Assembly: GCA_963713075.1 (NCBI GenBank)
Contig: CAVQKO010000013.1
Coordinates: forward strand, 81,487 to 145,486
Source of the DNA: an uncultured Chloroflexia bacterium
GTDB lineage: Bacteria > Chloroflexota > Limnocylindria > Limnocylindrales > CSP1-4
Reading direction: 5' to 3'
DNA length: 64,000 nt
Part shown: piece by piece, positions 18,795-38,082 of the stretch
Numbering within the stretch: the first letter of the stretch is position 1
Layout of the letters: each line of letters begins with the position of its first letter
Translations under genes and position numbers: made by a program
Notes under the pieces: model-generated
Told to the model about the DNA's origin: nothing
The model's database searches: none
What the model saw: the letters and a program-made list of their open reading frames with translations, nothing else

Positions 18795-18821
18795 CTCGCC
18801 TCTGGTCGACGGCCCCTGTCC

Positions 18822-20013: not shown

Positions 20014-20478
20014 ATGACCATCGAGAAGACCTCAATCCCCTCCGACCCGCCGGAGACGCTCCCCACGCTCAGCCGGCTCGGCGACAACGACAAGACGGTC
20101 TCGGGCGCCGACGAGGACATCCGGGGGCGGACCGTCAGGGACAAGGACGGCCACGAGCTCGGCAAGGTCGACGGCCTCCTGGTCGACGACGTCGAGCAGA
20201 GGGTCCGATTCATGGAGGTCGCGACGGGCGGCTTCCTGGGCCTCGGCGGGAGCAGGACCCTGATTCCGGTCGAGGCGATCACGCGGATCGAGGCCGAGGA
20301 GGTCCACATCAGTCACACCCGCGAGCACGTGGCCGGCGCGCCGCACTACGACCCGCAGCTGACCGTCGTTCAAGACGCGAGCTTCTGGTCGGGCCTGTAC
20401 CCCTACTACGGCTACGGGGTGGGGATGGCCCCGTGGATCACGAGCTGGCGGTCGAGACAGCACGGGCAGGGTCGCTGA
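20014..20478 (+). CDS. PRC-barrel domain protein
   Basis: ATG at 20014 with GGGAGA 8 nt upstream. 'GRTVRDKDGHELGKVDGLLVDDVEQRVRFMEV...LIPVEAI' is PRC-barrel-like. Confidence 0.7.
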   Translation: MTIEKTSIPSDPPETLPTLSRLGDNDKTVSGADEDIRGRTVRDKDGHELGKVDGLLVDDVEQRVRFMEVATGGFLGLGGSRTLIPVEAITRIEAEEVHISHTREHVAGAPHYDPQLTVVQDASFWSGLYPYYGYGVGMAPWITSWRSRQHGQGR

Positions 20479-20536
20479 TCACGCGATCGTGTCTGGGCCG
20501 CGTCGGGGAACAGGGATGCGCAGGAAGAGACAGAGC

Positions 20537-24124: not shown

Positions 24125-25357
24125 ATGGGGGAATCGGCTGTGCGCTCCGCTGGATCCCGCATCCTCGCGGTCAATGGCGGCTCGTCGAGCATCAAGTTCG
24201 CGCTGTTCGACGCGGGCGACGGGCTCCGGCGAATCCTCGAGGGCGGGATCGAGGGGATTGGGCTGCCGGTAACCACCATGCGCGTGACGAGCGAGGACCC
24301 GGGCAACACCTTCGAACGTTCGGTGACGGCGTCGGGCCACACGGCGGCGGTGGGCGTCCTGATGGACTGGATCGAGGAGCGCGACTGGCGTTCCCGGCTG
24401 AGCGCGGTGGGGCACCGCGTCGTCCACGGGGGACCGAAGTACAGCGGGCCGCAGCGGATCACCGCGGCCATGGTCGAGGACCTGCACCAGCTCAGTCCGT
24501 TCGATCCGGACCACCTTCCGGAGGAGATCCTGCTGACCGAGGCGTTCCATCGCCGGTTCCCCGATGTGCCCCAGGTGGCGTGCTTCGACACGGCATTCCA
24601 CCACGACATGCCCCGCGTGGCGCAGCTGCTGCCGATCCCGCGCCGGTTCGAGGCGCAGGGAGTGCGGCGGTACGGCTTCCACGGCCTGTCGTACGCGTTC
24701 CTCGTGGAGGAGCTGACCCGCCTGGCCGGGACGGAGGCGGGCGACGGCCGGGTCATCCTCGCCCACCTCGGCAGTGGCGCGAGCCTGGCGGCCGTGCACC
24801 ACGGGAGGTCCGTGGACACCAGCATGGGCCTCACCCCGACGGCCGGCGTGCCGATGGGCACACGCTCCGGCGATCTCGATCCCGGACTGGCCTGGTACCT
24901 GGCGCGCGCCGACGGGATCGACGCAAAGCAGTTCAACGAGATGGTCAACAGCGAGTCCGGTCTGCTCGGCGTGTCGGAGACCAGCTCGGACATGCGCGAC
25001 CTGCTCCACCGCGAGGCGCACGACGTCCGCGCGGCCGAAGCGGTGGCGCTCTTCTGCTACCAGGTCAAGAAGTGGATCGGCGCATTCGCCGCCGCCCTCG
25101 GCGGCCTCGACGCGCTCGTGTTCGCGGGCGGCATCGGGGAGAACGCGCCCACGGTCCGCGCCCGGATCTGCGACGGGCTGGGCTTCCTGGGCGTTGTCCT
25201 CGCCGACCAGCCCAACGCCGCCAGCGAGAGCGTGATTTCCGCAGGGGCGAGCCGGGTCGCGGTCCGGGTCATCCACACGGACGAGGAACGGATGATCGCC
25301 AAGCTGGTCTGCGACGTCCTCGGTTTCGGCCCAGCGAAGGAGCGAGTGGACCAATGA
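24125..25357 (+). CDS. ackA: acetate kinase
   Basis: '[16 protein letters not shown]', 'VGHRVVHGG' and '[11 protein letters not shown]' motifs. The start is ATG 24125, or GTG 24140 with GGGGGA 7 nt upstream. Confidence 0.85.
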
Positions 25358-27723
25358 CGAGTCAGCCGATCTCCCCGGACGTGCTCGCGAGGATGGATGC
25401 GTACTGGCGCGCGGCCAACTACCTCTCGGTCGGCCAGATCTACCTCTACGACAATCCGCTCCTGAGGGAGCCGCTCAGGCTCTCGCACGTGAAGCCACTG
25501 GTGGTCGGGCACTGGGGCACGACCCCCGGCCAGAACTTCATCTACGTGCACCTCAACCGTGTCATCAAGAAGTACGACCTCGACATGTTCTATGTCGCGG
25601 GTCCCGGGCACGGTGGGCCGGCGATCGTCGGCAACGTGTACCTCGAGGGCACCTGGAGCGAGGTCTACCCGAGCATCACCCAGGACGAGGCCGGCCTGCG
25701 GAAGCTGTTCACGCAGTTCTCGTTCCCCGGCGGCATCTCCAGCCACGTCGCGCCGACAACACCCGGGTCCATCCACGAGGGCGGCGAGCTCGGGTACTCG
25801 CTCAGCCACGCCTTCGGCGCCGCATTCGACAACCCGGGGCTCGTCGTCGCCTGCGTGATCGGCGACGGGGAGGCCGAGACCGGGCCGCTCGCGACCGCCT
25901 GGCAGTCCACCAAGTTCCTGAGCCCGATCTCCGACGGCGCGGTGCTCCCGATCCTCCACCTCAACGGCTACAAGATCAGCAACCCGACCGTCCTCGCCCG
26001 GATCGAGCACGAGGAGCTTGAGCAGTTCCTCCGCGGCTGCGGCTGGATGCCGTACTTCGTCGAGGGCGATGACCCCGACGCGATGCACGAGCTGATGGCG
26101 AGCACGCTCGACGACGCGATCGAGGAGATCGGGCGCATCCAGGCCCACGCCCGGACCACCAACAATTCGACCCGCCCACGCTGGCCGATGATCGTCCTGC
26201 GCTCGCCCAAGGGCTGGACGGGTCCCAAGGTGGTTGACGGCCTGCAGATTGAGGGCACCTTCCGTGCGCACCAGGTGCCGCTCCTGGTCGATGCCGCGCA
26301 TCCCGGGCACGTGGAGCAGCTCGAGGCGTGGCTGAAGAGCTACCGGCCCGAGGAGCTGTTCGACTCGGACGGTCGGCTCAAGCCGGAGCTCGCCGAGCTC
26401 GCGCCGATCGGCGACCGGCGGATGGGCGCCAACCCCCACGCCAACGGCGGCGCGCTGCTCCGCGACCTGCGCATGCCGGACTTCGGGGACCACGCCGTGG
26501 CCGTGCCCGCCCCGGGTGCCGTCGCGGCCCAGGACACGCTCGTCCTCGGCGGCTTCCTGCGCGATGTGGCCCAGCTGAACCTCGAGCAGCGCAACTTCCG
26601 CGTGTTCGGTCCCGATGAGACGGTGTCGAACCTCCTGCAGGCGGTCTTCGAGGTCACCAACCGCCAGTGGGAGCTCCCGGTCGAGACGAGCGACGAGTTT
26701 CTCGCTGCCGAGGGGCAGGTGCACGACTCCATGCTCAGCGAGCACCAGTGCGAGGGCTGGCTGGAGGGGTATCTCCTGACCGGCCGGCACGGCCTCTTCA
26801 ACTGCTACGAGGCGTTCGTCCGCATCGTCGACTCCATGTTCAGCCAGCACGCCAAGTGGCTCAAAGTCTGCGCCGAGCTGCCCTGGCGCCGCGACATCTC
26901 GTCGTTGAACTACGTCCTCGCATCCCATGTCTGGCAGCAGGACCACAACGGGTTCACGCACCAGGACCCGGGCTTCCTCGACCACGTGGTGAACAAGAAG
27001 GCGAGCATCGTCCGCGTCTACCTGCCGCCGGATGCGAACTGCCTGCTGTCGGTGATGGACCACTGTCTGCGAAGCCGCAACTACGTCAACGTCGTCGTGG
27101 CCGGCAAGCACGCCCTGCCCCAGTGGCTCTCGATGGACGAGGCCGTGATCCACTGCACCGAGGGGATCGGCATCTGGCCGTGGGCCAGCAACGACCAGGA
27201 TGGCGGGCCGGACGTCGTCATGGCCTGCTGCGGCGACACGCCCACCCTCGAGGTCCTGGCCGCGGTGTCGATCCTGCATGAGCACCTGCCCGACCTGAAG
27301 GTCCGCGTCGTCAACGTCGTCGACCTGATGAAGCTGCAGTCGAGCACCGAGCACCCGCACGGGTTGAGCGACCTGGACTACGACGCCCTCTTCACGCGGG
27401 ACAAGCACATCATCTTCGCCTTCCACGGCTACCCCTGGCTGATCCACCGCCTCACCTATCGCCGGACGAACCGCAACCTGCACGTCCGCGGGTACATCGA
27501 GGAGGGCACGATCACCACGGCCTTCGACGTGCGCGTGCAGAACAAGCTCGACCGGTTCCACCTCGTCACCGACGTCGTGGACCGGCTGCCCGGCTTGGGC
27601 GCCCGGGGCGACTACCTCAAGCAGCTCATGGCGGACAAGCTCGTCGAGCACAAGGTGTACATCAACACGCACGGGGAGGACCTCCCGGAGGTCCGGAACT
27701 GGACCTGGGGCGACCCCTCGTGA
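25354..27723 (+). CDS. xfp: xylulose-5-phosphate/fructose-6-phosphate phosphoketolase
   Basis: ATGA overlap with ackA. The 789-aa product has '[20 protein letters not shown]', '[20 protein letters not shown]' and '[10 protein letters not shown]', which are hallmark XFP blocks. Confidence 0.95.
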
Positions 27724-28742
27724 AGGCCGATGTGCTCGCCGAGACGGCGAAGGCCCTTGTCAACGACCACAAGGGCCTGCTGGCGATCGACGAGAGCAAT
27801 CCGACCTGCAACACACGCTTCGCGGCTGCCGGGATCCCGCAGACCGAGGCGGCCAGGCGCGCGTATCGCGAACTGATCGTGACCACGCCGGGTCTGAGCG
27901 AGTCCATCAGCGGTCTGATCCTCTACGACGAGACGATCCGCCAGCGGGCCACGGACGGCACGCCCCTGGTCAAGGTCGTCATCGACGCGGGGCTCATCCC
28001 CGGCATCAAGGTCGACACCGGCGCCAAGCCGCTGGCGGGTCATCCCGGCGAGCGCATCACCGAGGGCCTCGACGGGCTGCGCGAGCGACTCGTCGACTAC
28101 GCCCGGCTGGGCGCCCGGTTCGCCAAGTGGCGTGCCGTGATCGCCATCGGCGTCGGGATGCCGAGCCTGGCCTGCATCGAGGCGAACGCCCATGCGCTGG
28201 CTCGCTACGGCGCGATGTGTCAGGAGGCTGGCCTCGTCCCCGTCATCGAGCCCGACGTGCTCATGGCGGGCGAACACAGCCTCGAGCGGTGCGCCGAAGT
28301 GACCGAGGACGTCCTGCGGGCGGTGTTCATCGGGCTGCACGCACAGGGCGTGGCGCTCGAGGGCATGATCCTCAAGCCCAGCATGGTGCTGCCGGGTCTC
28401 GCCGCGGCCACGCAGCGCCCGGTCGACGAGGTCGCCGACGCGACCGTGACCTGCCTCCTGCGAGCCGTCCCGGCTGCCGTTCCGGGCGTCGCCTTCCTGT
28501 CCGGCGGGCAACCGGCCGAGCTTGCCACGGCACGGCTGAACGCGATGAACACGCGGCACCGGGCCCGCCTGCCCTGGGCGCTGGCGTTCTCGTTCGCCCG
28601 GGCCATCCAGCAGCCGGCCCTCGAGATCTGGCGCGGCGACGAAGCCAACGTGTCGGCGGCCCAGCGCGCCCTCGCGCATCGAGCCCGGTGCAACAGCGCC
28701 GCGCGCCGCGGCGAGTACACAGCCGCGATGGAGAGTGCATGA
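27720..28742 (+). CDS. class I fructose-bisphosphate aldolase
   Basis: GTGA overlap with xfp. '[15 protein letters not shown]', 'ILYDETIRQ' and '[11 protein letters not shown]' (Schiff-base Lys region) are class I FBA signatures. Confidence 0.85.
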
Positions 28743-29755
28743 GCATCCCCACACGGGCCGATGCCGCAGCCCGGGAGCCCCTCTACCCCCTGCGCTTCGA
28801 GCCGATCTACGAGTACCGACTGTGGGGTGGCCGGCGGCTCGCTGACCTGCTCACGGCACCGCTCCCGGGCGACGGCCCGATCGGAGAGGCGTGGGTCCTG
28901 AGCGACCGCGACGACCACGCGAGCCGGGTCGCCAACGGGCCGCTCAAGGGGAGAACCCTCCGCGAGGTGCTGACGGCGTGGCCCGAGCCGATGCTGGGGA
29001 CGCTCGCCGGCCGGTTCTGCCGCTTCCCGCTCCTGCTCAAGTTCCTCGACGCCCGCGAGCTCCTCTCGGTCCAGGTCCACCCCGCAGATACGCAGGCGGA
29101 CGTGCTGCCAGCCGGGGAGACCGGCAAGACCGAGGCATGGGTCGTCCTCGAGGCGGCCCCGGAGAGTCGGATCTATGCGGGCCTCAAGCCCGGCACGACC
29201 GCCGACGACCTGCGACAGGCGGCCGCGAGCGGGGCCGTCGCGGACCGCCTCGCCTCCTTCGCCCCGAGGCCCGGCGATGCCGTCTTCCTGCAGGCCGGCA
29301 CCGTTCACACGCTGGGCGGCGTCGTGGTGTTCGAGGTCCAGCAGAACAGCGACGTCACGTTCCGCCTGTACGACTGGGACCACGTGGATCCGACGACCGG
29401 GCAGCCCCGTCCCCTCCAGGTCGATCGGGCACTGCGCTCTGTCGACTTCTCCCAGCATGCGCTCGGCCCGGTGGCACCGGTGGTGGAGGCGACGACACCG
29501 GTCGAGCGCATGCGCCTCTTCGATTGCGAGCAGTTCAAGGTCTGGCGCCTGCGCGGCGGCTCACCGTTCAGCGTCGGCGAGCCGGGCCTGCCGCGTGCGC
29601 TCGTCTGCCTCGAGGGATCAGGGAATCTGGGGCATTCCGGCGTGATGCACCCGGTGGGCCGCGGCGACGTCTGGCTCCTGCCGGCAGTGGTCGGGGCCTG
29701 CGAGTTGCTGCCCGACGGGAACGTGACGGTGCTCGAAGTGGGGCTCCCCGAATGA
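28739..29755 (+). CDS. manA: mannose-6-phosphate isomerase, class I (cupin)
   Basis: ATGA overlap with the upstream gene. 'GEAWVLSDRDDHASRV', 'LLLKFLDARELLSVQVHP', 'KTEAWVVLEA', 'GTVHTLGGVVVFEVQQNSDVTFRLYDWD'. Confidence 0.8.
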   Translation: MSIPTRADAAAREPLYPLRFEPIYEYRLWGGRRLADLLTAPLPGDGPIGEAWVLSDRDDHASRVANGPLKGRTLREVLTAWPEPMLGTLAGRFCRFPLLLKFLDARELLSVQVHPADTQADVLPAGETGKTEAWVVLEAAPESRIYAGLKPGTTADDLRQAAASGAVADRLASFAPRPGDAVFLQAGTVHTLGGVVVFEVQQNSDVTFRLYDWDHVDPTTGQPRPLQVDRALRSVDFSQHALGPVAPVVEATTPVERMRLFDCEQFKVWRLRGGSPFSVGEPGLPRALVCLEGSGNLGHSGVMHPVGRGDVWLLPAVVGACELLPDGNVTVLEVGLPE

Positions 29756-30507
29756 AGCAACTGATTGTCTTCGATCTCGACGGCACGCTTGCCGAGAGCA
29801 AGTCGTCCGTGGGGCCCGCGGTGGCGGGCTTGATCCACGACCTCCTCGGGATCGTCAAGGTGGCCGTCATCTCGGGGGGCAACTGGCCGCAGTTCGAGGA
29901 GCAGGTGCTCGCCGGCCTCCCGTGCGACGAGCGGCTGGCGAACCTGTCCCTGCTCCCGACGTGTGGGACGAAGTTCCTCCGCTACGACGACGGCAAGTGG
30001 GCCGAGATCTACTCGGAGGACCTCAGCCCGGCCGAGCGGCGCAAGATCATCAGCTCGCTGGAGCAGGCGTTCGACACCGCGGGGCTCACCGTCGAGCGGG
30101 TCTGGGGCGAGGTGGTGGAGGACAGGGGAAGCCAGGTCACCTTCTCCGCCCTTGGGCAGCAGGCCCCCCTCGACGCCAAGACCGCCTGGGACCCCGACTT
30201 CGCCAAGCGCCGGAAGATCGTCGGGATCCTCGACACGCTGATCCCCGAGTTCTCCGTCCGGATGGGCGGCGCGACCTCGATCGACGTCACCAAGCCCGGC
30301 ATCGACAAGGCCTACGGGATCCGCAAGCTCCGCGACACGCTCGGCATTCCGCTCAGCGACATGATCTTCATCGGCGACGCCCTGTTCCCGGGCGGGAACG
30401 ACTATCCGGCCGAGGAGGCAGGGGTGGACTCGATCCCGGTGAAAGGGCCCGAGGAGACCAGGCTGGTGGTCCAGACGATCATCGCGTGCCTGGCTCCCGA
30501 ACCATGA
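29752..30507 (+). CDS. HAD-IIB family hydrolase, phosphomannomutase-like
   Basis: ATGA overlap. 'FDLDGTL', 'ISGG', 'GDALFPGGNDY' and a cap resembling eukaryotic-type phosphomannomutase or sugar phosphatases. Confidence 0.7.
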   Translation: MKQLIVFDLDGTLAESKSSVGPAVAGLIHDLLGIVKVAVISGGNWPQFEEQVLAGLPCDERLANLSLLPTCGTKFLRYDDGKWAEIYSEDLSPAERRKIISSLEQAFDTAGLTVERVWGEVVEDRGSQVTFSALGQQAPLDAKTAWDPDFAKRRKIVGILDTLIPEFSVRMGGATSIDVTKPGIDKAYGIRKLRDTLGIPLSDMIFIGDALFPGGNDYPAEEAGVDSIPVKGPEETRLVVQTIIACLAPEP

Positions 30508-30604: not shown

Positions 30605-33295
30605 ATGAGTCCGAAGGCAGTCGTGGCCGAGGCGAAGCCGGCGGCCACGCCGGGATCGAAGGACGACCTCAAGACGCTCCCCATGCCGGAGCTGCTGGCG
30701 AAGCTCGGGTCCTCGGCCGACGGCCTCACGCAGGCCGAGGCCCAGAAGCGCCTGGCCCAGTACGGGCCCAACGAGATCGAGGAGAAGAAGGACAACCCGT
30801 TCCTGAAGTTCCTGACCTACTTCTGGGGCCCGATCCCGTGGATGATCGAGGCGGCGGTCGTGCTCTCGGCGCTGGCCCAGCACTGGCCCGACTTCTTCAT
30901 CATCCTGCTGCTGCTGCTGGCCAACGCCGTGGTCGGATTCTGGGAGGAGCACCAGGCCGGCAACGCGATCGCGGCCCTGAAGGCCAAGCTCGCCGTCGAG
31001 GCCACGGCGAGGCGCGACGGGACGTGGGTGACCCCGCCGGCGCGCGAGCTGGTGCCGGGCGACGTCATCCGCCTGCGCCTGGGCGCGATCGTGCCCGCGG
31101 ACGCCCGCCTGCTCGCCGGCGATCCCGTCGAGGTGGACCAGTCCGCGCTGACAGGGGAATCGCTGCCGGCGACGCGCAAGCCCGGCGAGGCCGTGTTCTC
31201 GGGGTCGATCGTGCGCCAGGGCGAGATCGACGCGATGGTCTACGCCACCGGGGCGAACACCTACTTCGGCAGGACCGCGCAGCTCGTGCAGGAGGCGCAG
31301 ACCATCAGCCACTTCCAGCGGGCGGTGCTCAAGATCGGGGACTACCTGATCGTCCTCGCGGTGGCGCTCGTCGCCATCATCATCTTGGTCGCGCTGTTCC
31401 GCGGCGACCATATGCTCACCACGCTGCAGTTCGCGCTCGTGCTGACCGTCGCCGCGATCCCGGTGGCGATGCCGACGGTGCTGTCGGTGACGATGGCCGT
31501 CGGCGCGCGCAAGCTGGCCGGGCGCGAGGCGATTGTCACCCGCCTCGCGGCGATCGAGGAGCTCGCGGGCGTGGACGTCCTGTGCGCGGACAAGACCGGC
31601 ACGCTCACCCAGAACAAGCTGACGCTCGGCGACCCGTTCAGCGTGAGCGGCGTCCCCGGCGACCAGGTGGTCCTCTGCGCCGCGCTGGCGTCACGCGCCG
31701 AGGACAAGGACACCATCGACCTCGCCGTGCTGGGCGGGATCACCGACGACCAGGCCCTCAAGGACTACACGGTGGTCCACTTCCAGCCGTTCGACCCGGT
31801 CCACAAGCGCACCGAGGCCACCGTCAAGGGCCCAGACGGCAAGCAGTTCCGCGTCGCCAAGGGCGCGCCGCAGGTGATCCTGGAGATGTCAGCCGACGCT
31901 GGGAAGGTGAAGACTGCGGTCGACGGGGCGGTCGACGAGTTCGCGGCCCGGGGCTTCCGGTCGCTCGGCGTCGCCAGGGCGGGCAGTCGCGGCGACTGGC
32001 ACTTCATCGGCGTGCTGCCCCTCTTCGATCCGCCGCGCGACGAGGCCAAGGCGACCATCGCGAGCGCCCGCCAGATGGGCGTGGCGGTCAAGATGGTGAC
32101 GGGAGACGCCATCGCCATCGCCCGGGAGACGGCCGGCAAGCTCGGCATGGGGACCGACATCCTCGACGCCGGCGGCTTCGGCGACGCCAAGCACCACGAG
32201 ACCGCGCAGCTCGCGGCGTCGATCGAGCACGCCGACGGCTTCGCCCAGGTGTTCCCCGAGCACAAGTTCCACATCATCGACGTCCTGCAGCGGGGCGGCC
32301 ACATCGTGGGTATGACGGGCGACGGGGTGAACGACGCCCCAGCCCTCAAGAAGGCCGACTGCGGGATCGCCGTCTCGGGCGCCACGGACGCGGCCCGCGC
32401 GGCGGCCTCCATCGTGCTCCTGACGCCCGGCCTCTCGGTGATCATCGACGCGATCAGGGAGAGCCGCCGCATCTTCCAGCGGATGAACAGCTACGCGATC
32501 TACCGGATCGCCGAGACGCTGCGCGTCCTGCTGTTCATGACGCTCGCGATCCTGGTGTTCAACTTCTACCCGGTCACCGCGGTGATGATCGTGATGCTGG
32601 CGCTGCTCAACGACGGCGCCATCCTGTCCATCGCCTACGACAACGTCCACTACAAGCTCAAGCCCGAGGCGTGGAACATGCGCCTCGTGCTGGGCGTCGC
32701 CACCGTCCTCGGCGTCGCGGGCGTCGTCGCCGCGTTCGGCCTGTTCTATCTCGGCGAGCGCGTCTTCAACCTCGACCGCGACCACATCCAGACGCTGATG
32801 TACCTCAAGCTGTCGGTAGCCGGCCACCTGACGATCTTCCTCACCCGCACGCGCGGCCCGTTCTGGTCCATCCGCCCCGCGAAGGTGCTGCTCCTCGCCG
32901 TGTTCGGCACGCAGGCGGTGGCGACGCTGATCGCCGTGTTCGGCATCTTCATGACGCCGCTCGGCTGGGGCTGGGCGCTGTTCGTGTGGGCCTACGCGCT
33001 TGCCTGGTTCCTCGTCAACGACCGTGTGAAGCTGCTCGCGTACCGGATCCTCGATCCCACGAAGGAGCCGCTGCTGGCCAAGCGGCCGCGAGATCGGCGG
33101 CCGCAGATCGCCGCACGGGCATACGAGCTGTACCAGCAGAGAGTCCGCGGCGAAGGCCAGGCAGATCGAGACTGGCTCCAGGCGGAGCGCGAGGTGGGCG
33201 CGCCCGACGCCGAGGCGAGCCGCCCGGCCGAGCCCGCGCCCGACGCGACGCCTGACCGCCCGACCGAGCCTGCGCCAAAGGCCACAGCTCGTTGA
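30605..33295 (+). CDS. P3A-type plasma-membrane H+-ATPase-like P-type ATPase with C-terminal DUF2934-like tail
   Basis: GGAAGG upstream. 'CADKTGTLTQNKLT', 'GDGVNDAPALKKADCGIAV' and ten transmembrane segments. The C-terminal 'ARAYELYQQRVRGEGQADRDWLQAEREV' resembles DUF2934. Confidence 0.9.
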   Translation: MSPKAVVAEAKPAATPGSKDDLKTLPMPELLAKLGSSADGLTQAEAQKRLAQYGPNEIEEKKDNPFLKFLTYFWGPIPWMIEAAVVLSALAQHWPDFFIILLLLLANAVVGFWEEHQAGNAIAALKAKLAVEATARRDGTWVTPPARELVPGDVIRLRLGAIVPADARLLAGDPVEVDQSALTGESLPATRKPGEAVFSGSIVRQGEIDAMVYATGANTYFGRTAQLVQEAQTISHFQRAVLKIGDYLIVLAVALVAIIILVALFRGDHMLTTLQFALVLTVAAIPVAMPTVLSVTMAVGARKLAGREAIVTRLAAIEELAGVDVLCADKTGTLTQNKLTLGDPFSVSGVPGDQVVLCAALASRAEDKDTIDLAVLGGITDDQALKDYTVVHFQPFDPVHKRTEATVKGPDGKQFRVAKGAPQVILEMSADAGKVKTAVDGAVDEFAARGFRSLGVARAGSRGDWHFIGVLPLFDPPRDEAKATIASARQMGVAVKMVTGDAIAIARETAGKLGMGTDILDAGGFGDAKHHETAQLAASIEHADGFAQVFPEHKFHIIDVLQRGGHIVGMTGDGVNDAPALKKADCGIAVSGATDAARAAASIVLLTPGLSVIIDAIRESRRIFQRMNSYAIYRIAETLRVLLFMTLAILVFNFYPVTAVMIVMLALLNDGAILSIAYDNVHYKLKPEAWNMRLVLGVATVLGVAGVVAAFGLFYLGERVFNLDRDHIQTLMYLKLSVAGHLTIFLTRTRGPFWSIRPAKVLLLAVFGTQAVATLIAVFGIFMTPLGWGWALFVWAYALAWFLVNDRVKLLAYRILDPTKEPLLAKRPRDRRPQIAARAYELYQQRVRGEGQADRDWLQAEREVGAPDAEASRPAEPAPDATPDRPTEPAPKATAR

Positions 33296-33312
33296 CCGTG
33301 AAGGCTGAGACG

Positions 33313-33930
33313 ATGAGCGAAGCGCCTTCCACGACCTGCCTGTTCCTGGACATCGGCGGCGTTCTGCTGACTAACGGGTGGGATCACGAGGCCCGTCAAC
33401 GGGCGGCCACGAACTTCCAGTTGGACGCGGCCGAGACGGAGGAACGGCATCAGCTGGTCGTCGACACCTACGAGGAGGGAAGGCTCACGCTCGAGGCGTA
33501 CCTGGACCGGGTGATCTTCCATCAGCAGCGAACCTTCACTCGAGCGCAGTTTCAGCGCTTCATGTTCGCGCAATCCCACGCCTACCCCGAGATGCTCGAC
33601 CTGATCGCTCGGCTCAAGGTCCGTCACAGGCTGAAGATCGTCGTGGTGAGCAATGAGGGCCGCGAGCTGAACGAGCACCGGATCCGCACCTTCGAGCTGG
33701 CCGGGTTGGTGGATGCGTTCATCACCTCCTGCTTCGTCCACGTCCGCAAGCCCGACGCCGACATCTTTCGGCTCGCGCTGGACATTGCACAGGCGCCGCC
33801 CGGGAACGTGGTCTACATCGAGAACACCCCGATGTTCGTCGAGATCGCGGAAGCCCTTGGGCTTCGAGGCATTCACCACACGGATTACGAGACCACTCGC
33901 GCCAAGCTGGCCGCGCTGGGTCTGGCCTGA
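33313..33930 (+). CDS. HAD-IA family hydrolase
   Basis: 'CLFLDIGGVLLTNGWD...VVVSNEGRELNEHRI...VHVRKPDADIF...VVYIENT'. A TTG at 33292 would give a 4-nt overlap with the ATPase stop. Confidence 0.7.
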   Translation: MSEAPSTTCLFLDIGGVLLTNGWDHEARQRAATNFQLDAAETEERHQLVVDTYEEGRLTLEAYLDRVIFHQQRTFTRAQFQRFMFAQSHAYPEMLDLIARLKVRHRLKIVVVSNEGRELNEHRIRTFELAGLVDAFITSCFVHVRKPDADIFRLALDIAQAPPGNVVYIENTPMFVEIAEALGLRGIHHTDYETTRAKLAALGLA

Positions 33931-33999
33931 GGGGCACGCTCGGCCCGTACGACGCAAAGGCCGGGACTCCGCCGGTCGTGATCGGAAAGGAAGGCCACC

Positions 34000-34560
34000 G
34001 TGAATGGATCCGGACATCCGGCCGCCGGGGAGCCGCCCGATGACCTCGCAGGGGTCGATGCCCGCGTGGCGGAGTTGGCCAACAACGACGACTCCGTTCG
34101 CAAGGAGGCCCGGTTGGCGCTAGTGCGTGCCGGGCACCCTGCTGTGGCCGGACTCGTCGAGGCACTCGCGGACCCGCGTCGACAGGTGCGGTGGGAGGCC
34201 GCCATGACGCTTGAATGGATGGCGGACCCCGATGCGGCTGCGGCACTCGTGGGCGCGCTCAGGGATCGGGACTTCTCCGTCCGCTGGCTGGCAGCCAAAG
34301 GGATCGTGGCCCTCGGCGATGAGGGTCTGGCGCCGCTCCTTCGGGAGCTCGTGGAGCATTCCGACTCCAACGCCCTGCGGGAGAGCGCCCGACACGTTCT
34401 GCACGACCTGTCCAACAGGGGAGGGCGGCGCCGTCGGACGCTGCTTCAGCCGCTGCTCGCCGCGCTCGATGACGTCGAGCCGGTGCTGGCGGTGCCGCCC
34501 GCGGCAGCGGCCGTCCTTCAGGCTGTGATCCGCGCACGTCCCGAAGGCGACCGGCACTGA
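34000..34560 (+). CDS. HEAT-repeat (PBS-lyase-like) protein
   Basis: GTG start with AAGGAAGG 6 nt upstream. Repeats of 'VRxxAAxALxxxGDPxAVxxLxxALxDxDxxVRxxAA'. Confidence 0.6.
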   Translation: MNGSGHPAAGEPPDDLAGVDARVAELANNDDSVRKEARLALVRAGHPAVAGLVEALADPRRQVRWEAAMTLEWMADPDAAAALVGALRDRDFSVRWLAAKGIVALGDEGLAPLLRELVEHSDSNALRESARHVLHDLSNRGGRRRRTLLQPLLAALDDVEPVLAVPPAAAAVLQAVIRARPEGDRH

Positions 34561-34679
34561 CCCGACCACCACGGAGCCGGTCGGGCGTGGGCATCGACCC
34601 ACAAAGGGCTGCGCGGTCGACATGTACGGTGCCGGCATCCATCCACGCTGGGGGCCGCCACCCCCGCTCGTGGGCGCGC

Positions 34680-35069
34680 TCAGGGACCGCGACTGCTCCC
34701 GCCCCGGCGGTCGAGGGCCGACTGCTCGTCGACGGTACGCTCGGCGAGCGGATCGGCCGCCAACCGGTCAGGCGGGATGGGGGCGCCGCTCTCGACGGAC
34801 TTGCCATACGTGCCCGCGTCGAGGCGCTGTGCTGCCCGGTCGGCTTCGAGCAGTCGGCCGCGCAGGCCGGCCGCGACGGCCATGGCGACTTCCTCGGCGG
34901 CCACCTCGGTGCCAGACTCCGAGGTGTCGCCAGCCTGCTGGCTCTGCAGGTCACCCTCGGCCCGCACGGCACCGTCGACGTCAGCGAGCGCCGACTCGAT
35001 GCGGGCCCGCTCCGCGGCCACGAGGCGGCGGGCGCGCGTGACATCGATGCCGTCCTTGTCAGCCATCAT
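34680..35069 (-). CDS. DksA/TraR-family protein lacking the Cys4 zinc finger
   Basis: ATGATG start with GGAG upstream. The C-terminal 'RLDAGTYGKSVESGAPIPPDRLAADPLAERTV' aligns to the DksA 'ADGTYGxCExCGExIpxxRLxAxPxAxxC' region with Cys replaced by K/S/A. Confidence 0.5.
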   Translation of the reverse strand: MMADKDGIDVTRARRLVAAERARIESALADVDGAVRAEGDLQSQQAGDTSESGTEVAAEEVAMAVAAGLRGRLLEADRAAQRLDAGTYGKSVESGAPIPPDRLAADPLAERTVDEQSALDRRGGSSRGP

Positions 35070-35270
35070 GCAACTCCGGCGTCGGCGAGGACGGGCCTCA
35101 CCGCCGCGATCGGCACCGTCTGCGCGAGAACGAAGTGCGCGGGGTCGAGCTGCCAGGGTGCCATCGCGTCTCCTTGTCGATACCTCCCCTGTGGCGAGTC
35201 GACGATGCCCGCGGATGGGGCTCGCGACAAGGGTGGGGTCCTCCTGGGCCCGGTCCAGTCTCCGACCGCG

Positions 35271-35293
35271 GGCGCACCGGGGTCATGACCGTC
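35271..35293. repeat. palindromic motif copy c (gGTCATGACCgtcCGTCATGACG)
   Basis: Two GTCATGAC palindromes, nested in a larger inverted repeat GGCGCACCGG...CCGGTGCGCC (35262-35309). It lies in the divergent DksA-like / cupin intergenic region. Confidence 0.6.
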
Positions 35294-35399
35294 CGTCATG
35301 ACGCGACACCCGGTGCGCCGCAAGATCCGATCGGCGGCATGGCGCCGGGCGCCCGTCGGGCGCCCGCCAGCGGCCGTGCCCGCCGAGAGCAGGTCCACC

Positions 35400-35786
35400 A
35401 TGGCGCTCAACGTCGACATCATCGGGGCCGCACGCGCGAACTCCAACTTCCGCAAGGTCCTCTCCACTGGCCCGCATGCCCAGGTCGTGGTGATGAGCAT
35501 CCCGCCCGGCGGCGAGATCGGCGCGGAGGCGCACGACCATCTCGACCAGGTCCTGGTGTTCGTGGATGGCGTCGGCATCGCACAGCTGGGCGGCGAGGAG
35601 AGCGCGGTCAGCGCCGGACGCCTCGTCCTCGTCCCGGCCGGCATGCACCACAACGTCGTCAACACCGGCACGGCCGACCTGCGGCTGTACACGATCTATG
35701 CGCCGCCGCAGCATGCCCCGGGCACGGTGCACCGCACCAAGGCTGTGGCAGACGCCGACGAGGCTGACCACTTCGTCCCGGCCTGA
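35400..35786 (+). CDS. cupin-domain protein
   Basis: 'VVVMSIPPGGEIGAEAHDHLDQVLVFVDGVGIAQLGGEE...LVLVPAGMHHNVVNTG' carries both cupin motifs. Confidence 0.7.
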   Translation: MALNVDIIGAARANSNFRKVLSTGPHAQVVVMSIPPGGEIGAEAHDHLDQVLVFVDGVGIAQLGGEESAVSAGRLVLVPAGMHHNVVNTGTADLRLYTIYAPPQHAPGTVHRTKAVADADEADHFVPA

Positions 35787-35839
35787 GCAATCCTCGGCGC
35801 CGATCTCGTCGGCGCGGGCCAGCAGAAAGGAACCATCCA

Positions 35840-36106
35840 ATGGGCATCCTCGCCTGGATCGTCATCGGTGCAATCGCCGGCTTCCTGGCCAAGACCATCA
35901 TGGGCTCCCGCGAGGGCCTCGTGATGACGGTCGTGCTGGGCGTGGCCGGCGGACTCGTCGGCGGCTTCATCGCGACCCGCCTCCTGAAGGTGGGCTCGGT
36001 GGACGGCGTCAACGTCGAGAGCGTCGCCATTGCCACTCTGGGCGCCGTGGCGGTCCTTGTCGCTGCAAGGCTGCTGCAGGGCTCGCGCCGACTCCGGCTC
36101 CGCTGA
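35840..36106 (+). CDS. GlsB/YeaQ/YmgE-family stress membrane protein (second paralog)
   Basis: AAAGGA upstream. 'MGILAWIVIGAIAGFLAKTIMG...GGLVGGFIATRLL'. Confidence 0.75.
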   Translation: MGILAWIVIGAIAGFLAKTIMGSREGLVMTVVLGVAGGLVGGFIATRLLKVGSVDGVNVESVAIATLGAVAVLVAARLLQGSRRLRLR

Positions 36107-36138
36107 GGCTCCCGCTCTCTCCGCTGAGACTCCCGCTC
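36097..36138. repeat. 21-bp tandem repeat x2 (TCCGCTGAGgCTCCCGCTCTC / TCCGCTGAGaCTCCCGCTCTC)
   Basis: Two tandem copies with one mismatch, beginning in the last codons of the glsB paralog. Confidence 0.5.
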
Positions 36139-36383
36139 TCGGCGGCGACGCGGCACCCGCCTGGACAGGTGGCTGGATCAGGTCGTCTCGTCGAGCGACC
36201 GAACCCCTCCCAGGTCGGCTCGTCCGCCTCCAATCACGAAGGCTCAGCCATCGCGCGCGTCGCGGCGGCGCACGCGGCTCGGCGAGTACCATCGGCACTC
36301 GTCAGGTCCGTTCGATCAGCCCTGCCGGACGACGGCCAACCCGTGGGATAATCCAAGCGCATCATCGAGTGCCTGGAGCAGCA

Positions 36384-37166
36384 GTGTCCGCGGACCCCAC
36401 GATCGAGCAGAGCACCGACGCGCGCCGCGCGCTCGTGCTCCACGACCGCGAGCTCGTCGTGGACCTGATCGAGCTGACGCTGAACCACGGCCTGTTCGTG
36501 GTGCGGGCAGCGCGGGACCTGGCCGAGGCCGACGCGATCCTGGCGGACTGGCACCCGCACCTCGCCGTCGTCGACATGGACCACGACGACAGCACGGCCT
36601 TGCTCGGGCACCTCGGGGAGTCGAACCGGCTGCGGGAGCGGACCACGCCGGCCCTCGGCCTGACCCGCCGCGGCGACCTGCGGACCAAGCTCCGCGCGTT
36701 CGACCTCGGGGTCGACGACATCATCACGGTGCCGTTCTCGCCCGAGGAGCTGCTCGCGCGCGCGATCGTCATCACCCGGCGGGCCACCGGCTCGGACCGG
36801 CCGATGGTGCCGACGATCCGCCTGGGCGAGATGGAGATCGACATCCTCGGCCGCGAGGTGCGCACCGGCACGTCCGTCATCCACCTGACCGGCATCGAGC
36901 AGAGCCTGCTGTACCTGCTCGCGAGCCGGGCCGGGCGCGTGGTGACGCGGGACGAGATCCTCGACGCGGTCTGGGGCACCGACTTCGTGGCCGAGTCCAA
37001 CATCGTCGACCGGCACATCCGCAGCCTGCGCATCAAGCTCCAGAACGACTACCGCCACCCGCGGTTCATCGCGACGGTCCCGGGCGGCGGGTACCGGTTC
37101 ATCCCGGTGTTCTCCAACACGGGCTGGGGCGGCAGCGGGCCGGAGGGCGAGCACCCGGCGCACTGA
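36384..37166 (+). CDS. OmpR/PhoB-family response regulator with atypical receiver (orphan)
   Basis: GTG start with GGAG upstream. A GTG at 36369 is also possible. The winged helix 'LTGIEQSLLYLLASRAGRVVTRDEILDAVWG...VDRHIRSLRIKL...GGGYRF' is intact. The receiver has 'HDRE' in place of the DD pair and 'TVPF' in place of KPF. Confidence 0.75.
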   Translation: MSADPTIEQSTDARRALVLHDRELVVDLIELTLNHGLFVVRAARDLAEADAILADWHPHLAVVDMDHDDSTALLGHLGESNRLRERTTPALGLTRRGDLRTKLRAFDLGVDDIITVPFSPEELLARAIVITRRATGSDRPMVPTIRLGEMEIDILGREVRTGTSVIHLTGIEQSLLYLLASRAGRVVTRDEILDAVWGTDFVAESNIVDRHIRSLRIKLQNDYRHPRFIATVPGGGYRFIPVFSNTGWGGSGPEGEHPAH

Positions 37167-37183
37167 CCGGCCGACGTCCGGGC

Positions 37184-37202
37184 ATGACGGACCGTCATGA
37201 CG
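37184..37202. repeat. palindromic motif copy d (ATGACGGaCCGTCATGACG)
   Basis: A 7-bp inverted repeat with a 1-nt spacer plus the CGTCATGACG palindrome. It lies 18 nt after the response-regulator stop and 95 nt before a small membrane ORF. Flanked by GCGCAC...GTGCGC. Confidence 0.6.
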
Positions 37203-37297
37203 CGCACCGTGCGCTGACGGAGTCTCTGAGGCATGCCGCCACCCACCGCCGCCCGTCGGGCGGCTTGCCGGCGCCGCGGCACTGACGGAGCCGTCCC

Positions 37298-37474
37298 ATG
37301 GCGACCCTTGCACGCCCCAGCGACCACGCGCCGGAGCGCATCCGCGACTTGCCTGCCGCGTCGCCGGTCACGCGGCGACAGTCGGCCGAGGCGGTCGGGC
37401 TGCTGGTCGGGCTCCTCCTCGTCCTCCTCGCGGTGGCGCTGAGCACCGGCGCCCCGATCGGCATCGGGCAGTGA
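37298..37474 (+). CDS. possible small membrane protein (58 aa)
   Basis: Not in the ORF track because it is under 60 aa. High third-position GC. The product ends in a hydrophobic helix (VGLLVGLLLVLLAVALS). Confidence 0.3.
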   Translation: MATLARPSDHAPERIRDLPAASPVTRRQSAEAVGLLVGLLLVLLAVALSTGAPIGIGQ

Positions 37475-37656
37475 GCGTCCGCTCGCCGGTCGTGCGCGCC
37501 GGGTTTGCCGATGCCGTGCCGCCCGTCGGCCCGGCGCCGCAGGAGGTGCCGGTGCTCCACGCGGCCGTGCGGAGTGCCGTGCTCGTGGCCCTCGCGGTCA
37601 TGCTGGTCTTCGTCCTGCTGCCGGCGCTGCTCGGCGCCGCCAGCCACGGGATGTAG
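37471..37656 (+). CDS. possible small membrane protein (61 aa)
   Basis: GTGA overlap with the preceding small ORF. C-terminal transmembrane segment 'VLVALAVMLVFVLLPALLGAA'. Confidence 0.3.
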   Translation: MSVRSPVVRAGFADAVPPVGPAPQEVPVLHAAVRSAVLVALAVMLVFVLLPALLGAASHGM

Positions 37657-37899
37657 GTAGCGACCTCCCTCATGGGCGCGGGCGGGCAGGCCGCCTTGCC
37701 AGTGCTCGGCGATGCCCGGTCGCGCCGGGCAATCGCCCTGCCGGCGGCCCATGATTGGCCGTCCGGTCATCGGACCCCGTCGCACGGACGGCGGCGCTGG
37801 CCCGGACCCGGTCTCCGGACCGTGGCATCCGGCCGGCGAAGCCCGGCGCGGCGGGGTCCCTCCACGTGTCGCCGGCCACGCACTGCGCGGACCCGAATG

Positions 37900-37921
37900 A
37901 CGCAGCGTCATGACGTCCCGT
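37900..37921. repeat. palindromic motif copy e (ATGACGcagCGTCATGACGtcc)
   Basis: ATGACG/CGTCAT inverted repeat plus the CGTCATGACG palindrome. It lies in the 620-nt intergenic region upstream of the ComB-like gene. Confidence 0.55.
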
Positions 37922-38082
37922 AGCGTCAGGTCCATCGTCGCTCGGGCCCGGCGGGACTCACTGACTGACAGCGATTTCAGCCGGGTGTTCCCGTTGCCGC
38001 CGGCCCGGGGCCGGGGCGCCTCGGGCGCCAGCGATGCGGCGAATCCGGGTCGCGCTGAAGGGGGCGCGTGCTCACCCCGCGG

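What the first reader, a model, noticed from the sequence alone, without database searches (positions are those of the whole stretch)
30605..37656. Stress or dormancy-like gene island led by a P3A-type H+-ATPase with a DUF2934-like tail
The contiguous block contains:
- a plasma-membrane-type proton ATPase, rare in bacteria, whose C-terminus resembles DUF2934 (ARAYELYQQRVRGEGQADRDWLQAEREV)
- a HAD-IA hydrolase
- a HEAT-repeat protein
- a DksA/TraR-like protein that has lost all four zinc-finger Cys residues
- a cupin
- a GlsB/YeaQ paralog
- an orphan OmpR-type response regulator with a degenerate receiver
- two overlapping ~60-aa membrane ORFs

Several members have palindromic-motif copies in their promoters. 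This composition resembles a hypoxia or energy-stress regulon, but the associated motif is unlike the DosR box.
Basis: partly seen in the sequence, partly recalled or inferred. Interest (0 to 1): 0.55.

Follow-up and report, generated by a model that had tools for sequence, protein, structure and literature searches.

The report
Stress regulon around a bacterial proton pump
The flagged genes are real, but they are not a self-contained island: they are parts of a scattered stress or dormancy regulon switched by one newly recognised promoter signal, and the proton pump belongs to a sugar-to-acetate "emergency power" gene cassette shared across many bacterial phyla.

Summary
Two of its readings fail.

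**The pump is not rare.** Homologues that are 78-88% identical occur in at least seven phylum- or class-level labels.

**The pump does not lead an island.** It is gene 9 of an 11-gene, same-strand train (19.9-34.6 kb). In 60 of 80 species-representative genomes it sits next to phosphoketolase, commonly also with acetate kinase, class I aldolase, a mannose-6-P isomerase-like gene and HAD genes.

**The palindromic motif is real and turns out to be a composite promoter.**
- The sequence is ATGACGGnCCGTCAT, followed by GACG, 17 nt, then cAcAcT.
- Nine copies lie in the window; ten shuffles gave none.
- In 99 independent metagenome copies, the -10-like hexamer sits at one fixed offset in 73.
- This places the palindrome at about -41, the position of an activator site.

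**What the promoter heads.** In this lineage it heads the ATPase cassette in six of six loci. It also heads operons for GlsB, CsbD, DUF1269, PRC-barrel, cupin, DksA-like and small membrane proteins.

**Best candidate activator.** This is the atypical orphan OmpR-type regulator at 36384-37166. It is the commonest gene family next to the motif. Binding and the inducing signal are untested.

The parts
19830..19871 (+). Composite promoter heading the long operon: palindrome 19830-19844, GAC, and the -10-like hexamer CACAGT at 19866-19871
19933..20478 (+). PRC-barrel protein, first gene of the train (an alternative ATG lies at 20014)
   Evidence: PF05239, E = 2.5e-10
20489..21556 (+). gnd_rel-type 6-phosphogluconate dehydrogenase
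   Evidence: TIGR00872, 397 bits against a cut-off of 297
21616..24063 (+). GH15 glucoamylase/glucodextranase
   Evidence: PF09137 and PF00723. TIGR01535 scores 606 bits, below its cut-off
24125..25357 (+). Acetate kinase (start approximate)
   Evidence: PF00871, E = 1.4e-109
25354..27723 (+). Phosphoketolase Xfp
   Evidence: XFP_N, XFP and XFP_C domains. Next to the ATPase in 60 of 80 genomes
27720..28742 (+). Class I fructose-bisphosphate aldolase
   Evidence: PF00274, E = 5.9e-125
28739..29755 (+). Type I mannose-6-phosphate isomerase-like protein
   Evidence: PF20511. TIGR00218 scores 109.7 bits, just under its cut-off of 116.2
29746..30507 (+). HAD-IIB hydrolase resembling eukaryotic-type phosphomannomutase
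   Evidence: TIGR01484, 74 bits. PF03332 scores 31.6 bits against a gathering score of 22.4
30605..33295 (+). P3A-type H+-ATPase. The DUF2934 tail is encoded at 33095-33196, followed by a Pro/Ala-rich end
33292..33930 (+). HAD-IA hydrolase. Its start overlaps the ATPase stop codon
   Evidence: A cassette member in 14 of 80 genomes
34000..34560 (+). HEAT-repeat protein, last gene of the train; specific to this strain
   Evidence: PF13646, 95.5 bits. 0 of 80 loci
34680..35164 (-). 32-aa ORF (35066-35164) translationally coupled to the Cys-free DksA/yteA-like gene (34680-35069)
35257..35326 (.). Bidirectional composite promoter: palindrome 35285-35299, -10 hexamer CAAGAT at 35321-35326 (+), and GAGACT at 35257-35262 (-)
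35400..35786 (+). Cupin_2 protein
   Evidence: A 72% identical homologue follows a YggT-like/GlsB pair in L110
35840..36106 (+). GlsB/YeaQ membrane stress protein
36384..37166 (+). Atypical orphan OmpR/PhoB-family response regulator; candidate activator that binds the palindrome
37184..37225 (+). Composite promoter 18 nt after the regulator's stop codon: palindrome 37184-37198, -10 hexamer GAGTCT at 37220-37225
37298..37656 (+). Two overlapping small single-pass membrane ORFs (37298-37474 and 37471-37656)
37897..37938 (+). Composite promoter with no recognisable gene downstream
9879..10956 (+). Composite promoter (9879-9920) followed by a YggT-like membrane protein (10005-10421), a second GlsB (10508-10777) and CsbD (10774-10956)
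11096..15543 (-). Composite promoter (15503-15543) followed by a sugar ABC binding protein, two permeases and a GH130 mannoside phosphorylase
15724..16669 (+). Composite promoter (15724-15764) followed by a SHOCT protein and a CopI-like cupredoxin
16722..19766 (-). Composite promoter (19726-19766) followed by DUF1269 (19023-19544), a 66-aa ORF and a copper-type P1B ATPase (16722-18794)

Best explanation
The flagged stretch is a juxtaposition of several transcription units of one dispersed stress or dormancy regulon.

**Shown: the control signal**
- Each unit is headed by the same composite promoter.
- It consists of a 15-bp palindrome ATGACGGnCCGTCAT, whose last two bases plus GACG form a -35-like ATGACG, then a 17-nt spacer, then a -10-like cAcAcT.
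- This puts the palindrome at about -48 to -34, centred near -41.

**Inferred: how the promoter works**
- A homodimeric activator binds the palindrome and recruits RNA polymerase carrying a housekeeping-type sigma factor to an otherwise weak promoter.
- The best candidate is the atypical, probably phosphorylation-independent OmpR/PhoB-family regulator at 36384-37166. It would bind head-to-head, as HP1043 of Helicobacter does.

**Shown: where the ATPase sits**
- The ATPase belongs to a cassette conserved across phyla.
- The commonest full gene order, seen in four loci, is HAD-IA, acetate kinase, phosphoketolase, class I aldolase, PMI-like, PMM-like HAD, then the P3A ATPase with its DUF2934 tail.

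**Inferred: what the cassette does**
- Stored or imported sugars are split by phosphoketolase to acetyl-phosphate.
- Acetate kinase converts acetyl-phosphate into ATP without needing an electron acceptor.
- The P-type pump spends that ATP to expel protons. This would keep the membrane potential and cytoplasmic pH when respiration stops, for example under anoxia, freezing or drying.
- The small proteins (GlsB, CsbD, DUF1269, PRC-barrel, YggT-like, cupin, DksA-like and the two small membrane ORFs) would protect the envelope and reprogramme transcription in the same state.
For: **Promoter**
- The bare palindrome gives 9 copies against 0.74 expected.
- A separate stricter scan found 9 composite promoter arrangements at 7 positions in the window (two sites are read on both strands, and site 9879 falls outside this scan). 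Ten shuffles gave 0.
- In 99 unique high-GC metagenome copies selected only on the 19-mer, A at +23 and T at +27 co-occur in 73. At any other offset the count is 0-6.
- The orientation of every site points to a gene.

**Regulon conservation**
- The same families follow the promoter in metagenome contigs and MAGs.
- The ATPase or its cassette is headed by the motif in the window and in L001, L002, L044, L065 and L080.

**Cassette**
- Within 10 kb of the ATPase, Xfp occurs in 60 of 80 genomes (56 on the same strand), AckA in 24, FBA in 25, PMI in 24, HAD-IIB in 29 and HAD-IA in 14.

**Pump identity**
- TIGR01647 scores above its cut-off.
- The motifs DKTGT, TGES and GDGVNDAP are present.
- The equivalents of AHA2 Asn106, Arg655 and Asp684 are conserved.

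**Regulator**
- It is the most frequent gene family in motif-fetched contigs, at about 23 of 100.
- In the majority of 26 regulator loci, a correctly oriented motif lies within about 160 nt after the regulator's stop codon.
- In the four loci fetched through the regulator rather than the motif, a palindrome lies 17, 70 and 55 nt after the stop in L203, L205 and L206, and about 410 nt after it in L204. Only the L203 copy has the full promoter arrangement on the regulator's strand.
- Its DNA-binding end is almost invariant across homologues.
- No kinase gene lies next to it.

**Precedent**
- HP1043 is an atypical OmpR-family regulator that binds head-to-head to TTTAAG-5bp-CTTAAA overlapping the -35 and activates transcription (PMC8345958).
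Against: - There are no expression, transcription-start or binding data.
- The regulator is under the motif only in L161 and L174, so autoregulation is not general.
- A Crp/Fnr-like gene is also linked to the regulator and the motif in some genomes.
- A repressor, or a dedicated sigma factor, could use the same sequence.
- The 97-nt gap before the ATPase could hide an internal promoter, although none matched.
- The cassette lacks several enzymes needed for a complete pathway: hexokinase, transketolase and epimerase.
- The roles assigned to the two HAD proteins and the PMI-like protein are guesses.
- The ion specificity of prokaryotic P3A pumps has not been established experimentally (PMC10654040).
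Confidence: 0.55

Rival explanations
1. The palindrome is bound by the 233-aa Crp/Fnr-like regulator, not by the OmpR-type protein. It would act as a classical Class II activator centred near -41.
For: - The site geometry equals that of Class II CRP/FNR promoters.
- A conserved Crp-like gene (HTH_Crp_2) lies divergent from the regulator in 6 motif-fetched contigs.
- It lies within 5-7 kb of the regulator in L203 and L205.
Against: - It is absent from the 64-kb window, from L044 and L080, and from the called genes of L204 and L206. The OmpR-type gene is present in all of these.
- Known Crp/Fnr sites are even-length dyads such as 5-N6-5 or 5-N4-5 (from my own knowledge). This site is odd-length, with a central base pair.
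- It is far less often adjacent to the motif: 6 contigs against about 23.
Confidence: 0.2
2. The palindrome is an operator for a repressor that blocks the -35. The regulon would be switched on by loss of repression.
For: - The palindrome overlaps the -35-like hexamer by two bases.
- Many palindromic operators work in this way (general knowledge).
Against: - The phase relative to the -35 and -10 is rigid.
- The -10 is weak: it has no T at position 1, which is C or G in most copies. This is typical of activator-dependent promoters.
- Repressor sites usually vary in position.
- The bidirectional site at 35285 serves two promoters symmetrically.
Confidence: 0.12
3. The conserved sequence is simply the promoter of a dedicated alternative sigma factor, with no separate DNA-binding regulator.
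For: - General-stress regulons in Bacillus and the Alphaproteobacteria are sigma-factor driven (general knowledge).
- The TGACG and cAcAcT elements are unusual hexamers.
Against: - A sigma factor reads its -35 as a monomer, which would not conserve a perfect upstream dyad including the G6/C10 pair.
- The A2, A4 and T6 pattern fits housekeeping-type -10 elements.
- The EcfG-type motif is absent.
- No sigma factor gene is recurrently linked to the motif.
Confidence: 0.08
4. One reading: a contiguous, horizontally acquired hypoxia island whose lead gene is the ATPase.
For: - The genes are adjacent in this window.
- The ATPase cassette is clearly transferred horizontally, being 78-88% identical across phyla.
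Against: - There is no compositional break at 30.6 or 37.7 kb.
- The ATPase has no promoter of its own.
- The downstream genes are not its neighbours elsewhere.
- The regulon extends from 9.9 to 37.9 kb.
Confidence: 0.05

Closest known systems
Plant and fungal plasma-membrane H+-ATPases (AHA2, Pma1; P3A subfamily)
   Same: - The full-length alignment to AHA2 scores 700 bits.
- The catalytic motifs are present.
- The proton-path residues equivalent to Asn106, Arg655 and Asp684 are conserved.
   Different: - The protein is bacterial and lacks the eukaryotic regulatory tails. It has a DUF2934 domain plus a Pro/Ala-rich tail instead.
- It is embedded in a phosphoketolase/acetate kinase operon.
- Its transport activity has not been tested.
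HP1043 (HsrA) of Helicobacter pylori, an atypical orphan OmpR/PhoB regulator
   Same: - It has a degenerate receiver and no partner kinase.
- Its site is an odd-length dyad that overlaps the -35.
- It acts as an activator (PMC8345958).
   Different: - The recognition sequence is unrelated: ATGACGG-n-CCGTCAT against TTTAAG-N5-CTTAAA.
- Here binding is only inferred from gene-motif linkage.
- The regulon is stress or dormancy, not essential housekeeping.
DosR/DevR dormancy regulon of mycobacteria
   Same: - The theme is survival without respiration.
- The activator site overlaps the -35.
- The regulon contains many small proteins of unknown function.
   Different: - The DosR box is absent.
- The candidate regulator belongs to the OmpR family, not the NarL family.
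- The dyad has a 5-nt gap, against 4 nt between the GAC and GTC of the DosR box.
General stress regulons (sigma-B of Bacillus; EcfG/PhyR of the Alphaproteobacteria)
   Same: The gene content is similar: CsbD, GlsB/YeaQ, DUF1269, PRC-barrel and DksA-like proteins (from my own knowledge of those regulons).
   Different: - Control appears to work through a dyad-binding activator at a housekeeping-type promoter, not an alternative sigma factor.
- The EcfG-type promoter is absent.
Phosphoketolase (bifid-shunt type) fermentation operons xfp-ackA
   Same: Xfp and acetate kinase are adjacent, giving ATP by substrate-level phosphorylation.
   Different: - They are coupled here, in 60 of 80 genomes, to a P-type proton pump, often also with class I aldolase, PMI-like and HAD genes.
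- My searches of the held papers found no paper describing this linkage.

Membership tests
P3A plasma-membrane-type H+-ATPase | Equivalog model TIGR01647 scores above its curated cut-off | tested here: met
   1052.4 bits against 615.5
P3A plasma-membrane-type H+-ATPase | P-type catalytic motifs, and the proton-path residues Asn in TM2, Arg in TM5 and Asp in TM6 | tested here: met
   DKTGT, TGES and GDGVNDAP are present in the sequence. The alignment to AHA2 (5ksd) conserves the residues in the motifs N(A)VVGF, ETLRV and LLNDG.
P3A plasma-membrane-type H+-ATPase | ATP-driven electrogenic proton export | not testable with these tools
   This needs proteoliposome or complementation assays. A review states that the function of prokaryotic P3A pumps is undetermined.
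DUF2934 (PF11154) | Match above the Pfam gathering score | tested here: met
   33.4 bits against 22, at residues 831-864. The domain is present in 116 of the best 120 homologue clusters.
OmpR/PhoB response regulators | Winged-helix Trans_reg_C domain plus a receiver domain | tested here: met
   PF00486 scores 84 bits. PF00072 scores 32.8 bits against a gathering score of 30.2.
OmpR/PhoB response regulators (canonical, phosphorylation-dependent) | Complete phospho-acceptor pocket (acidic pair, Asp, Thr/Ser, Lys) and a partner kinase | tested here: not met
   In the alignment to RpaA the first acidic residue is His and the Lys is Val; the Asp and Thr are kept. No kinase gene lies next to the regulator in the window or in L203-L206.
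DksA/TraR family | C4 zinc finger and a PF01258 match above the gathering score | tested here: not met
   17 bits against 24.9. The protein contains no Cys. There is only sub-threshold similarity to yteA and DksA. It can therefore be called DksA-like but not a member.
DosR/DevR regulon | DosR box (GGGAC-N4-GTCCC core) in the promoters | tested here: not met
   4 hits against 8.3 expected, none at these promoters
EcfG-type general stress regulon | GGAAC-N16-17-CGTT promoters | tested here: not met
   One hit, inside a coding region
Class II activator-dependent promoters | Dyad site centred near -41 and abutting the -35 | tested here: inconclusive
   The geometry follows from the fixed 21-nt distance between the palindrome and the -10-like hexamer. 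Transcription starts and activation have not been measured.

The most novel reading that the evidence does not exclude
There may be a horizontally mobile "emergency power" cassette in soil and wetland bacteria of many phyla. It would couple redox-neutral phosphoketolase fermentation (acetyl-phosphate to ATP) directly to a P-type proton pump with a DUF2934 regulatory tail, giving membrane energisation without respiration. In one uncultured high-GC lineage it would be wired into a dormancy regulon run by a previously unrecognised master regulator: an atypical OmpR-family protein that reads an inverted repeat at -41.
Probability: 0.35. Interest if true: 0.8.

Novelty: new variant of a known kind. 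Interest (0 to 1): 0.62.

Why it matters
**Bacterial P3A pumps.** A 2023 review says prokaryotic P3A pumps occur mainly in methanogens and have unknown function. The data here show them to be common and highly conserved in soil bacteria, and they suggest a concrete, testable role: maintaining the proton-motive force on fermentative ATP.

**A regulon for uncultured bacteria.** The composite promoter gives a sequence handle for finding the stress or dormancy regulon of an abundant uncultured lineage in peat, permafrost and soil metagenomes. It comes with a named candidate regulator. This would allow predicted dormancy responses to be read directly in metatranscriptomes.

Tried and rejected
**Known motifs**
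- The BldD box (TNAC-N5-GTNA) matches formally. I dropped it because the motif is much more specific and is rigidly phased with a -10, and because no BldD-like gene recurred near the motif. An unrelated 121-aa XRE-family protein occurs in only 3 contigs.
- The DosR box and the EcfG promoter are absent.

**RNA and canonical signals**
- Rfam gave no match and there are no tRNAs.
- Canonical sigma-70 promoter and terminator scans found nothing in 19-38.5 kb.

**Source and taxonomy**
- Exact look-ups of the window's ATPase and regulator found no contig on record.
- Cluster look-up and a sigma-factor search gave no organism names.
- Taxonomy therefore rests on the record titles of related loci, such as "uncultured Chloroflexia bacterium" and "Chloroflexi bacterium fen_1079".

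**Other dead ends**
- tblastx of 37657-38275 found no conserved ORF.
- Literature searches for the motif sequence and for the phosphoketolase/ATPase linkage found nothing relevant.

**Errors of my own**
- Two of my tblastn queries, the regulator from 36385 and HAD-IIB from 29745, were out of frame. They still marked the homologous loci.
- The regulator result was re-derived independently by gene calling and clustering and with the correct frame.
- HAD-IIB was re-annotated in the correct frame.

Full report
**1. Observation**

The window has 72% G+C and shows no compositional break around the flagged range. Pfam and NCBIfam confirm every listed gene:
- The P3A H+-ATPase lies at 30605-33295. TIGR01647 scores 1052 bits against a cut-off of 615.5.
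- Its DUF2934 tail covers residues 831-864. PF11154 scores 33.4 bits against a gathering score of 22.
- The remaining features are a HAD-IA hydrolase, a HEAT_2 protein, a cupin, a GlsB/YeaQ protein and an OmpR-type regulator.
- The DksA/yteA-like protein contains no Cys and scores below the family thresholds.
- The two small membrane ORFs have no family match. The first has clear relatives elsewhere; the second aligns only weakly.

Alignment to a solved regulator shows the receiver is degenerate. The first acidic residue is His and the conserved Lys is Val, while the phospho-Asp and Thr are kept.

The ATPase keeps the catalytic motifs and the equivalents of AHA2 Asn106, Arg655 and Asp684.

**2. 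The ATPase is neither rare nor the head of an island**

The best 120 homologue clusters are 81-88% identical, and 116 carry DUF2934.

The best 80 come from records labelled Acidobacteriota, Chloroflexi/Chloroflexia, alpha-, beta-, gamma- and delta-proteobacteria (including Methylobacter, Methylomicrobium, Gallionella and Thiobacillus), Nitrospirota and Acidimicrobiaceae.

In the window the ATPase is gene 9 of an 11-gene, same-strand train with gaps of at most 97 nt. The order is:
1. PRC-barrel protein
2. gnd_rel 6-phosphogluconate dehydrogenase
3. GH15 glucoamylase
4. acetate kinase
5. phosphoketolase
6. class I aldolase
7. PMI-like protein
8. PMM-like HAD-IIB
9. ATPase
10. HAD-IA
11. HEAT protein

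.

I ran tblastn with the window's proteins against the 80 loci:

| Protein | Loci with a homologue within 10 kb of the ATPase (of 80) |
|---|---|
| Phosphoketolase | 60 (56 on the same strand; most of the best matches 82-87% identical) |
| HAD-IIB | 29 |
| Class I aldolase | 25 |
| Acetate kinase | 24 |
| PMI-like | 24 |
| HAD-IA | 14 |
| GlsB | 4 |
| DksA-like | 2 |
| OmpR-type regulator | 2 |
| Cupin | 1 |
| HEAT | 0 |

The fullest recurring order is HAD-IA, AckA, Xfp, FBA, PMI, HAD-IIB, ATPase, as in L044, L046, L062 and L074.

The conserved functional unit is therefore the sugar-to-acetate cassette plus the pump. Apart from the ATPase and the HAD-IA gene, it lies upstream of the flagged range.

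**3. The palindrome is part of a composite promoter**

ATGAC-N5-GTCAT occurs 9 times with at most 1 mismatch, against 0.74 expected.

When the copies are aligned and oriented, each is followed by GAC(G) and, 21 nt after the palindrome, by a hexamer of the form nAnnnT: CACACT, GACACT, CAGACT or GAGACT. A scan for the whole arrangement found 9 in the window and 0 in ten shuffles.

An independent test scanned metagenomes for ATGACGNNCCGTCATGACG and returned 120 stretches. Among 99 unique high-GC copies, selected on nothing downstream of the 19-mer:

| Position after the palindrome | Base | Copies (of 99) |
|---|---|---|
| +23 | A | 78 |
| +25 | A | 59 |
| +26 | C | 64 |
| +27 | T | 73 |

A at +23 and T at +27 co-occur at offset +22 in 73 copies, against 0-6 at every other offset.

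Reading ATGACG as a -35 relative (compare TTGACA), with a 17-nt spacer and cAcAcT as the -10, the palindrome spans about -48 to -34 and is centred at -41. That is the geometry of a Class II activator site. The site at 35285 is bidirectional.

**4. Transcription units in the window**

| Promoter | Genes it heads |
|---|---|
| 9879 (+) | YggT-like membrane protein, GlsB, CsbD |
| 15529 (-) | sugar ABC transporter, GH130 mannoside phosphorylase |
| 15724 (+) | SHOCT protein, CopI-like cupredoxin |
| 19752 (-) | DUF1269, 66-aa ORF, copper-type P1B ATPase |
| 19830 (+) | the 11-gene train containing the H+-ATPase |
| 35285 (-) | 32-aa ORF, DksA-like protein |
| 35285 (+) | cupin, GlsB |
| 37184 (+) | the two small membrane ORFs |
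| 37897 (+) | no recognisable gene |

.

The regulator gene itself is preceded by a GATAAT -10-like hexamer and not by the motif. This is my reading of the sequence.

**5. Conservation of the regulon**

Among the fetched loci, exact copies of the motif occur only in high-GC loci deposited as "uncultured Chloroflexia bacterium", plus L001, a metagenome contig for which no organism title is held. They do not occur in the 70-odd loci from other phyla that carry the ATPase. A Stordalen "Chloroflexi" MAG has degenerate variants with one mismatch.

In all six loci of this lineage the ATPase or its cassette is headed by the motif.

In metagenome contigs the genes after the promoter are:
- the same families as in the window: YggT-like, GlsB, CsbD, DUF1269, PRC-barrel, relatives of the two small ORFs, HAD-IA, PMI and a sugar-binding protein;
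- additional families: ice-binding-like proteins, a putative zinc peptidase family (the L206 member carries PF04228), DUF5661 and a PAS sensor kinase

.

Co-regulation is therefore supported by comparative genomics even though gene positions are scattered. In L203 the regulator, small ORFs, YggT-like, GlsB and CsbD genes form one cluster beside tyrosine-degradation genes, with no ATPase within 10 kb.

**6. Candidate regulator**

Clustering all called genes of the 100 high-GC motif-fetched contigs makes the OmpR-type family the most frequent, at about 23 contigs. The YggT-like family is next with 15 and GlsB with 14.

In the majority of 26 regulator loci a correctly oriented motif lies within about 160 nt after the regulator's stop codon, as in the window, where the distance is 18 nt.

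Four loci were fetched through the regulator protein rather than the motif (79-88% identity). They again carry palindromes:
- L203: 17 nt after the stop.
- L205: 70 nt after the stop.
- L206: 55 nt after the stop.
- L204: 235 nt before the start and about 410 nt after the stop.

Only the L203 copy has the full promoter arrangement on the regulator's strand. The L205 and L206 copies have GCC in place of GAC, although they keep the -10-like hexamer.

The family is very abundant and tightly conserved: the best 119 further clusters are 79-92% identical to the window's protein. The DNA-binding end is almost invariant.

Two supporting points come from outside the data. The half-site CCGTCAT resembles the PhoB 7-mer CTGTCAT; this is from memory and is a lead only. 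The HP1043 precedent shows that an atypical OmpR-family protein can bind a dyad overlapping the -35 and activate transcription.

The main rival is a Crp/Fnr-like gene. It lies divergent from the regulator in 6 contigs and nearby in L203 and L205. It is absent from the window, L044, L080, L204 and L206.

**7. Mechanism: what is shown and what is inferred**

Shown:
- The promoter architecture.
- Its distribution, and the gene families it heads.
- The cross-phylum cassette.
- The regulator-motif linkage.

Inferred:
- Activation by the regulator.
- The operon status of the 11-gene train.
- The physiological logic:
  - Storage or imported glycans are degraded by GH15 and GH130.
  - The PMM-like and PMI-like enzymes feed sugar phosphates to phosphoketolase.
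  - Acetate kinase converts the resulting acetyl-phosphate into ATP.
  - The P3A pump spends that ATP to maintain the membrane potential and pH without respiration.
- The trigger, which is unknown. Anoxia, cold and desiccation are all possible.

**8. Comparison with what is known, and novelty**

The pump is a member of the P3A family by every sequence test I could run. The DUF2934 fusion is already recorded in precomputed domain tables.

A 2023 review places prokaryotic P3A pumps mainly in methanogens and calls their function undetermined. None of my searches of the held open-access papers found a paper that links these pumps to phosphoketolase or that mentions the motif.

The regulon resembles general-stress and DosR-type regulons in content, but not in its control element.

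I rate this a new variant of known kinds: an activator-dependent stress regulon, and a phosphoketolase operon newly found coupled to a proton pump.

Noticed in passing
window 37657-38275: This is a stretch of about 620 bp with no coding signal, lying between the second small ORF and the convergent ComB-like gene. It holds a well-formed composite promoter at 37897 and a degenerate palindrome at 38090. The predicted transcript would run antisense into the ComB-like gene. No conserved ORF or Rfam match was found.
   Followed up: partly
window 16722-18794 (-) and 15906-16669 (+): A copper-type P1B ATPase (TIGR01511, 565 bits) with no metal-binding domain match reported lies downstream of DUF1269 in a motif-driven unit. 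A CopI-like cupredoxin and a SHOCT protein lie in the facing motif-driven unit. Copper handling may therefore belong to the same regulon.
   Followed up: partly
window 11096-12205 (-): A GH130 mannoside phosphorylase lies at the end of the motif-driven sugar ABC operon. Its product, mannose-1-phosphate, would feed the PMM-like and PMI-like enzymes of the ATPase cassette.
   Followed up: no
window 34246-34278 and 34667-34699: A 33-nt segment of the HEAT gene is repeated at 91% identity 421 nt downstream, where it overlaps the 3' end of the DksA-like gene on the other strand. It may be a remnant of a longer HEAT-repeat gene.
   Followed up: no
window 33199-33270: A 36-nt tandem duplication lies inside the ATPase's Pro/Ala-rich extreme C-terminus (APDAEASRPAEP / APDATPDRPTEP).
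   Followed up: no
window 36107-36140: A direct repeat (GGCTCCCGCTCTCTCCGCTGAGACTCCCGCTCTC) lies just after the GlsB stop codon. A GATAAT -10-like hexamer lies at about 36343, ahead of the regulator gene.
   Followed up: no
window 9042-9353 (-): A two-CW domain protein (NF045718, 106 bits) is encoded upstream of, and on the opposite strand from, the 9879 promoter.
   Followed up: no
L205 8001-8783 and 14638-15423; L204 6492-7583; L206 11980-12807: Some relatives carry two paralogues of the atypical regulator, one of them divergent from the Crp-like gene. GGDEF proteins lie next to motif sites in two loci.
   Followed up: no
L002 12613-16096: In one relative the motif-driven ATPase is followed by glycogen phosphorylase and PPK2 instead of the phosphoketolase set. 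This is another link between the pump and the mobilisation of energy reserves.
   Followed up: no
window 4644-5609 (+) and 2854-3339 (-): A NarL/MadR-like response regulator and a GerE-only protein lie 4-7 kb upstream of the first motif site. Neither has close homologues in the motif-bearing loci.
   Followed up: partly
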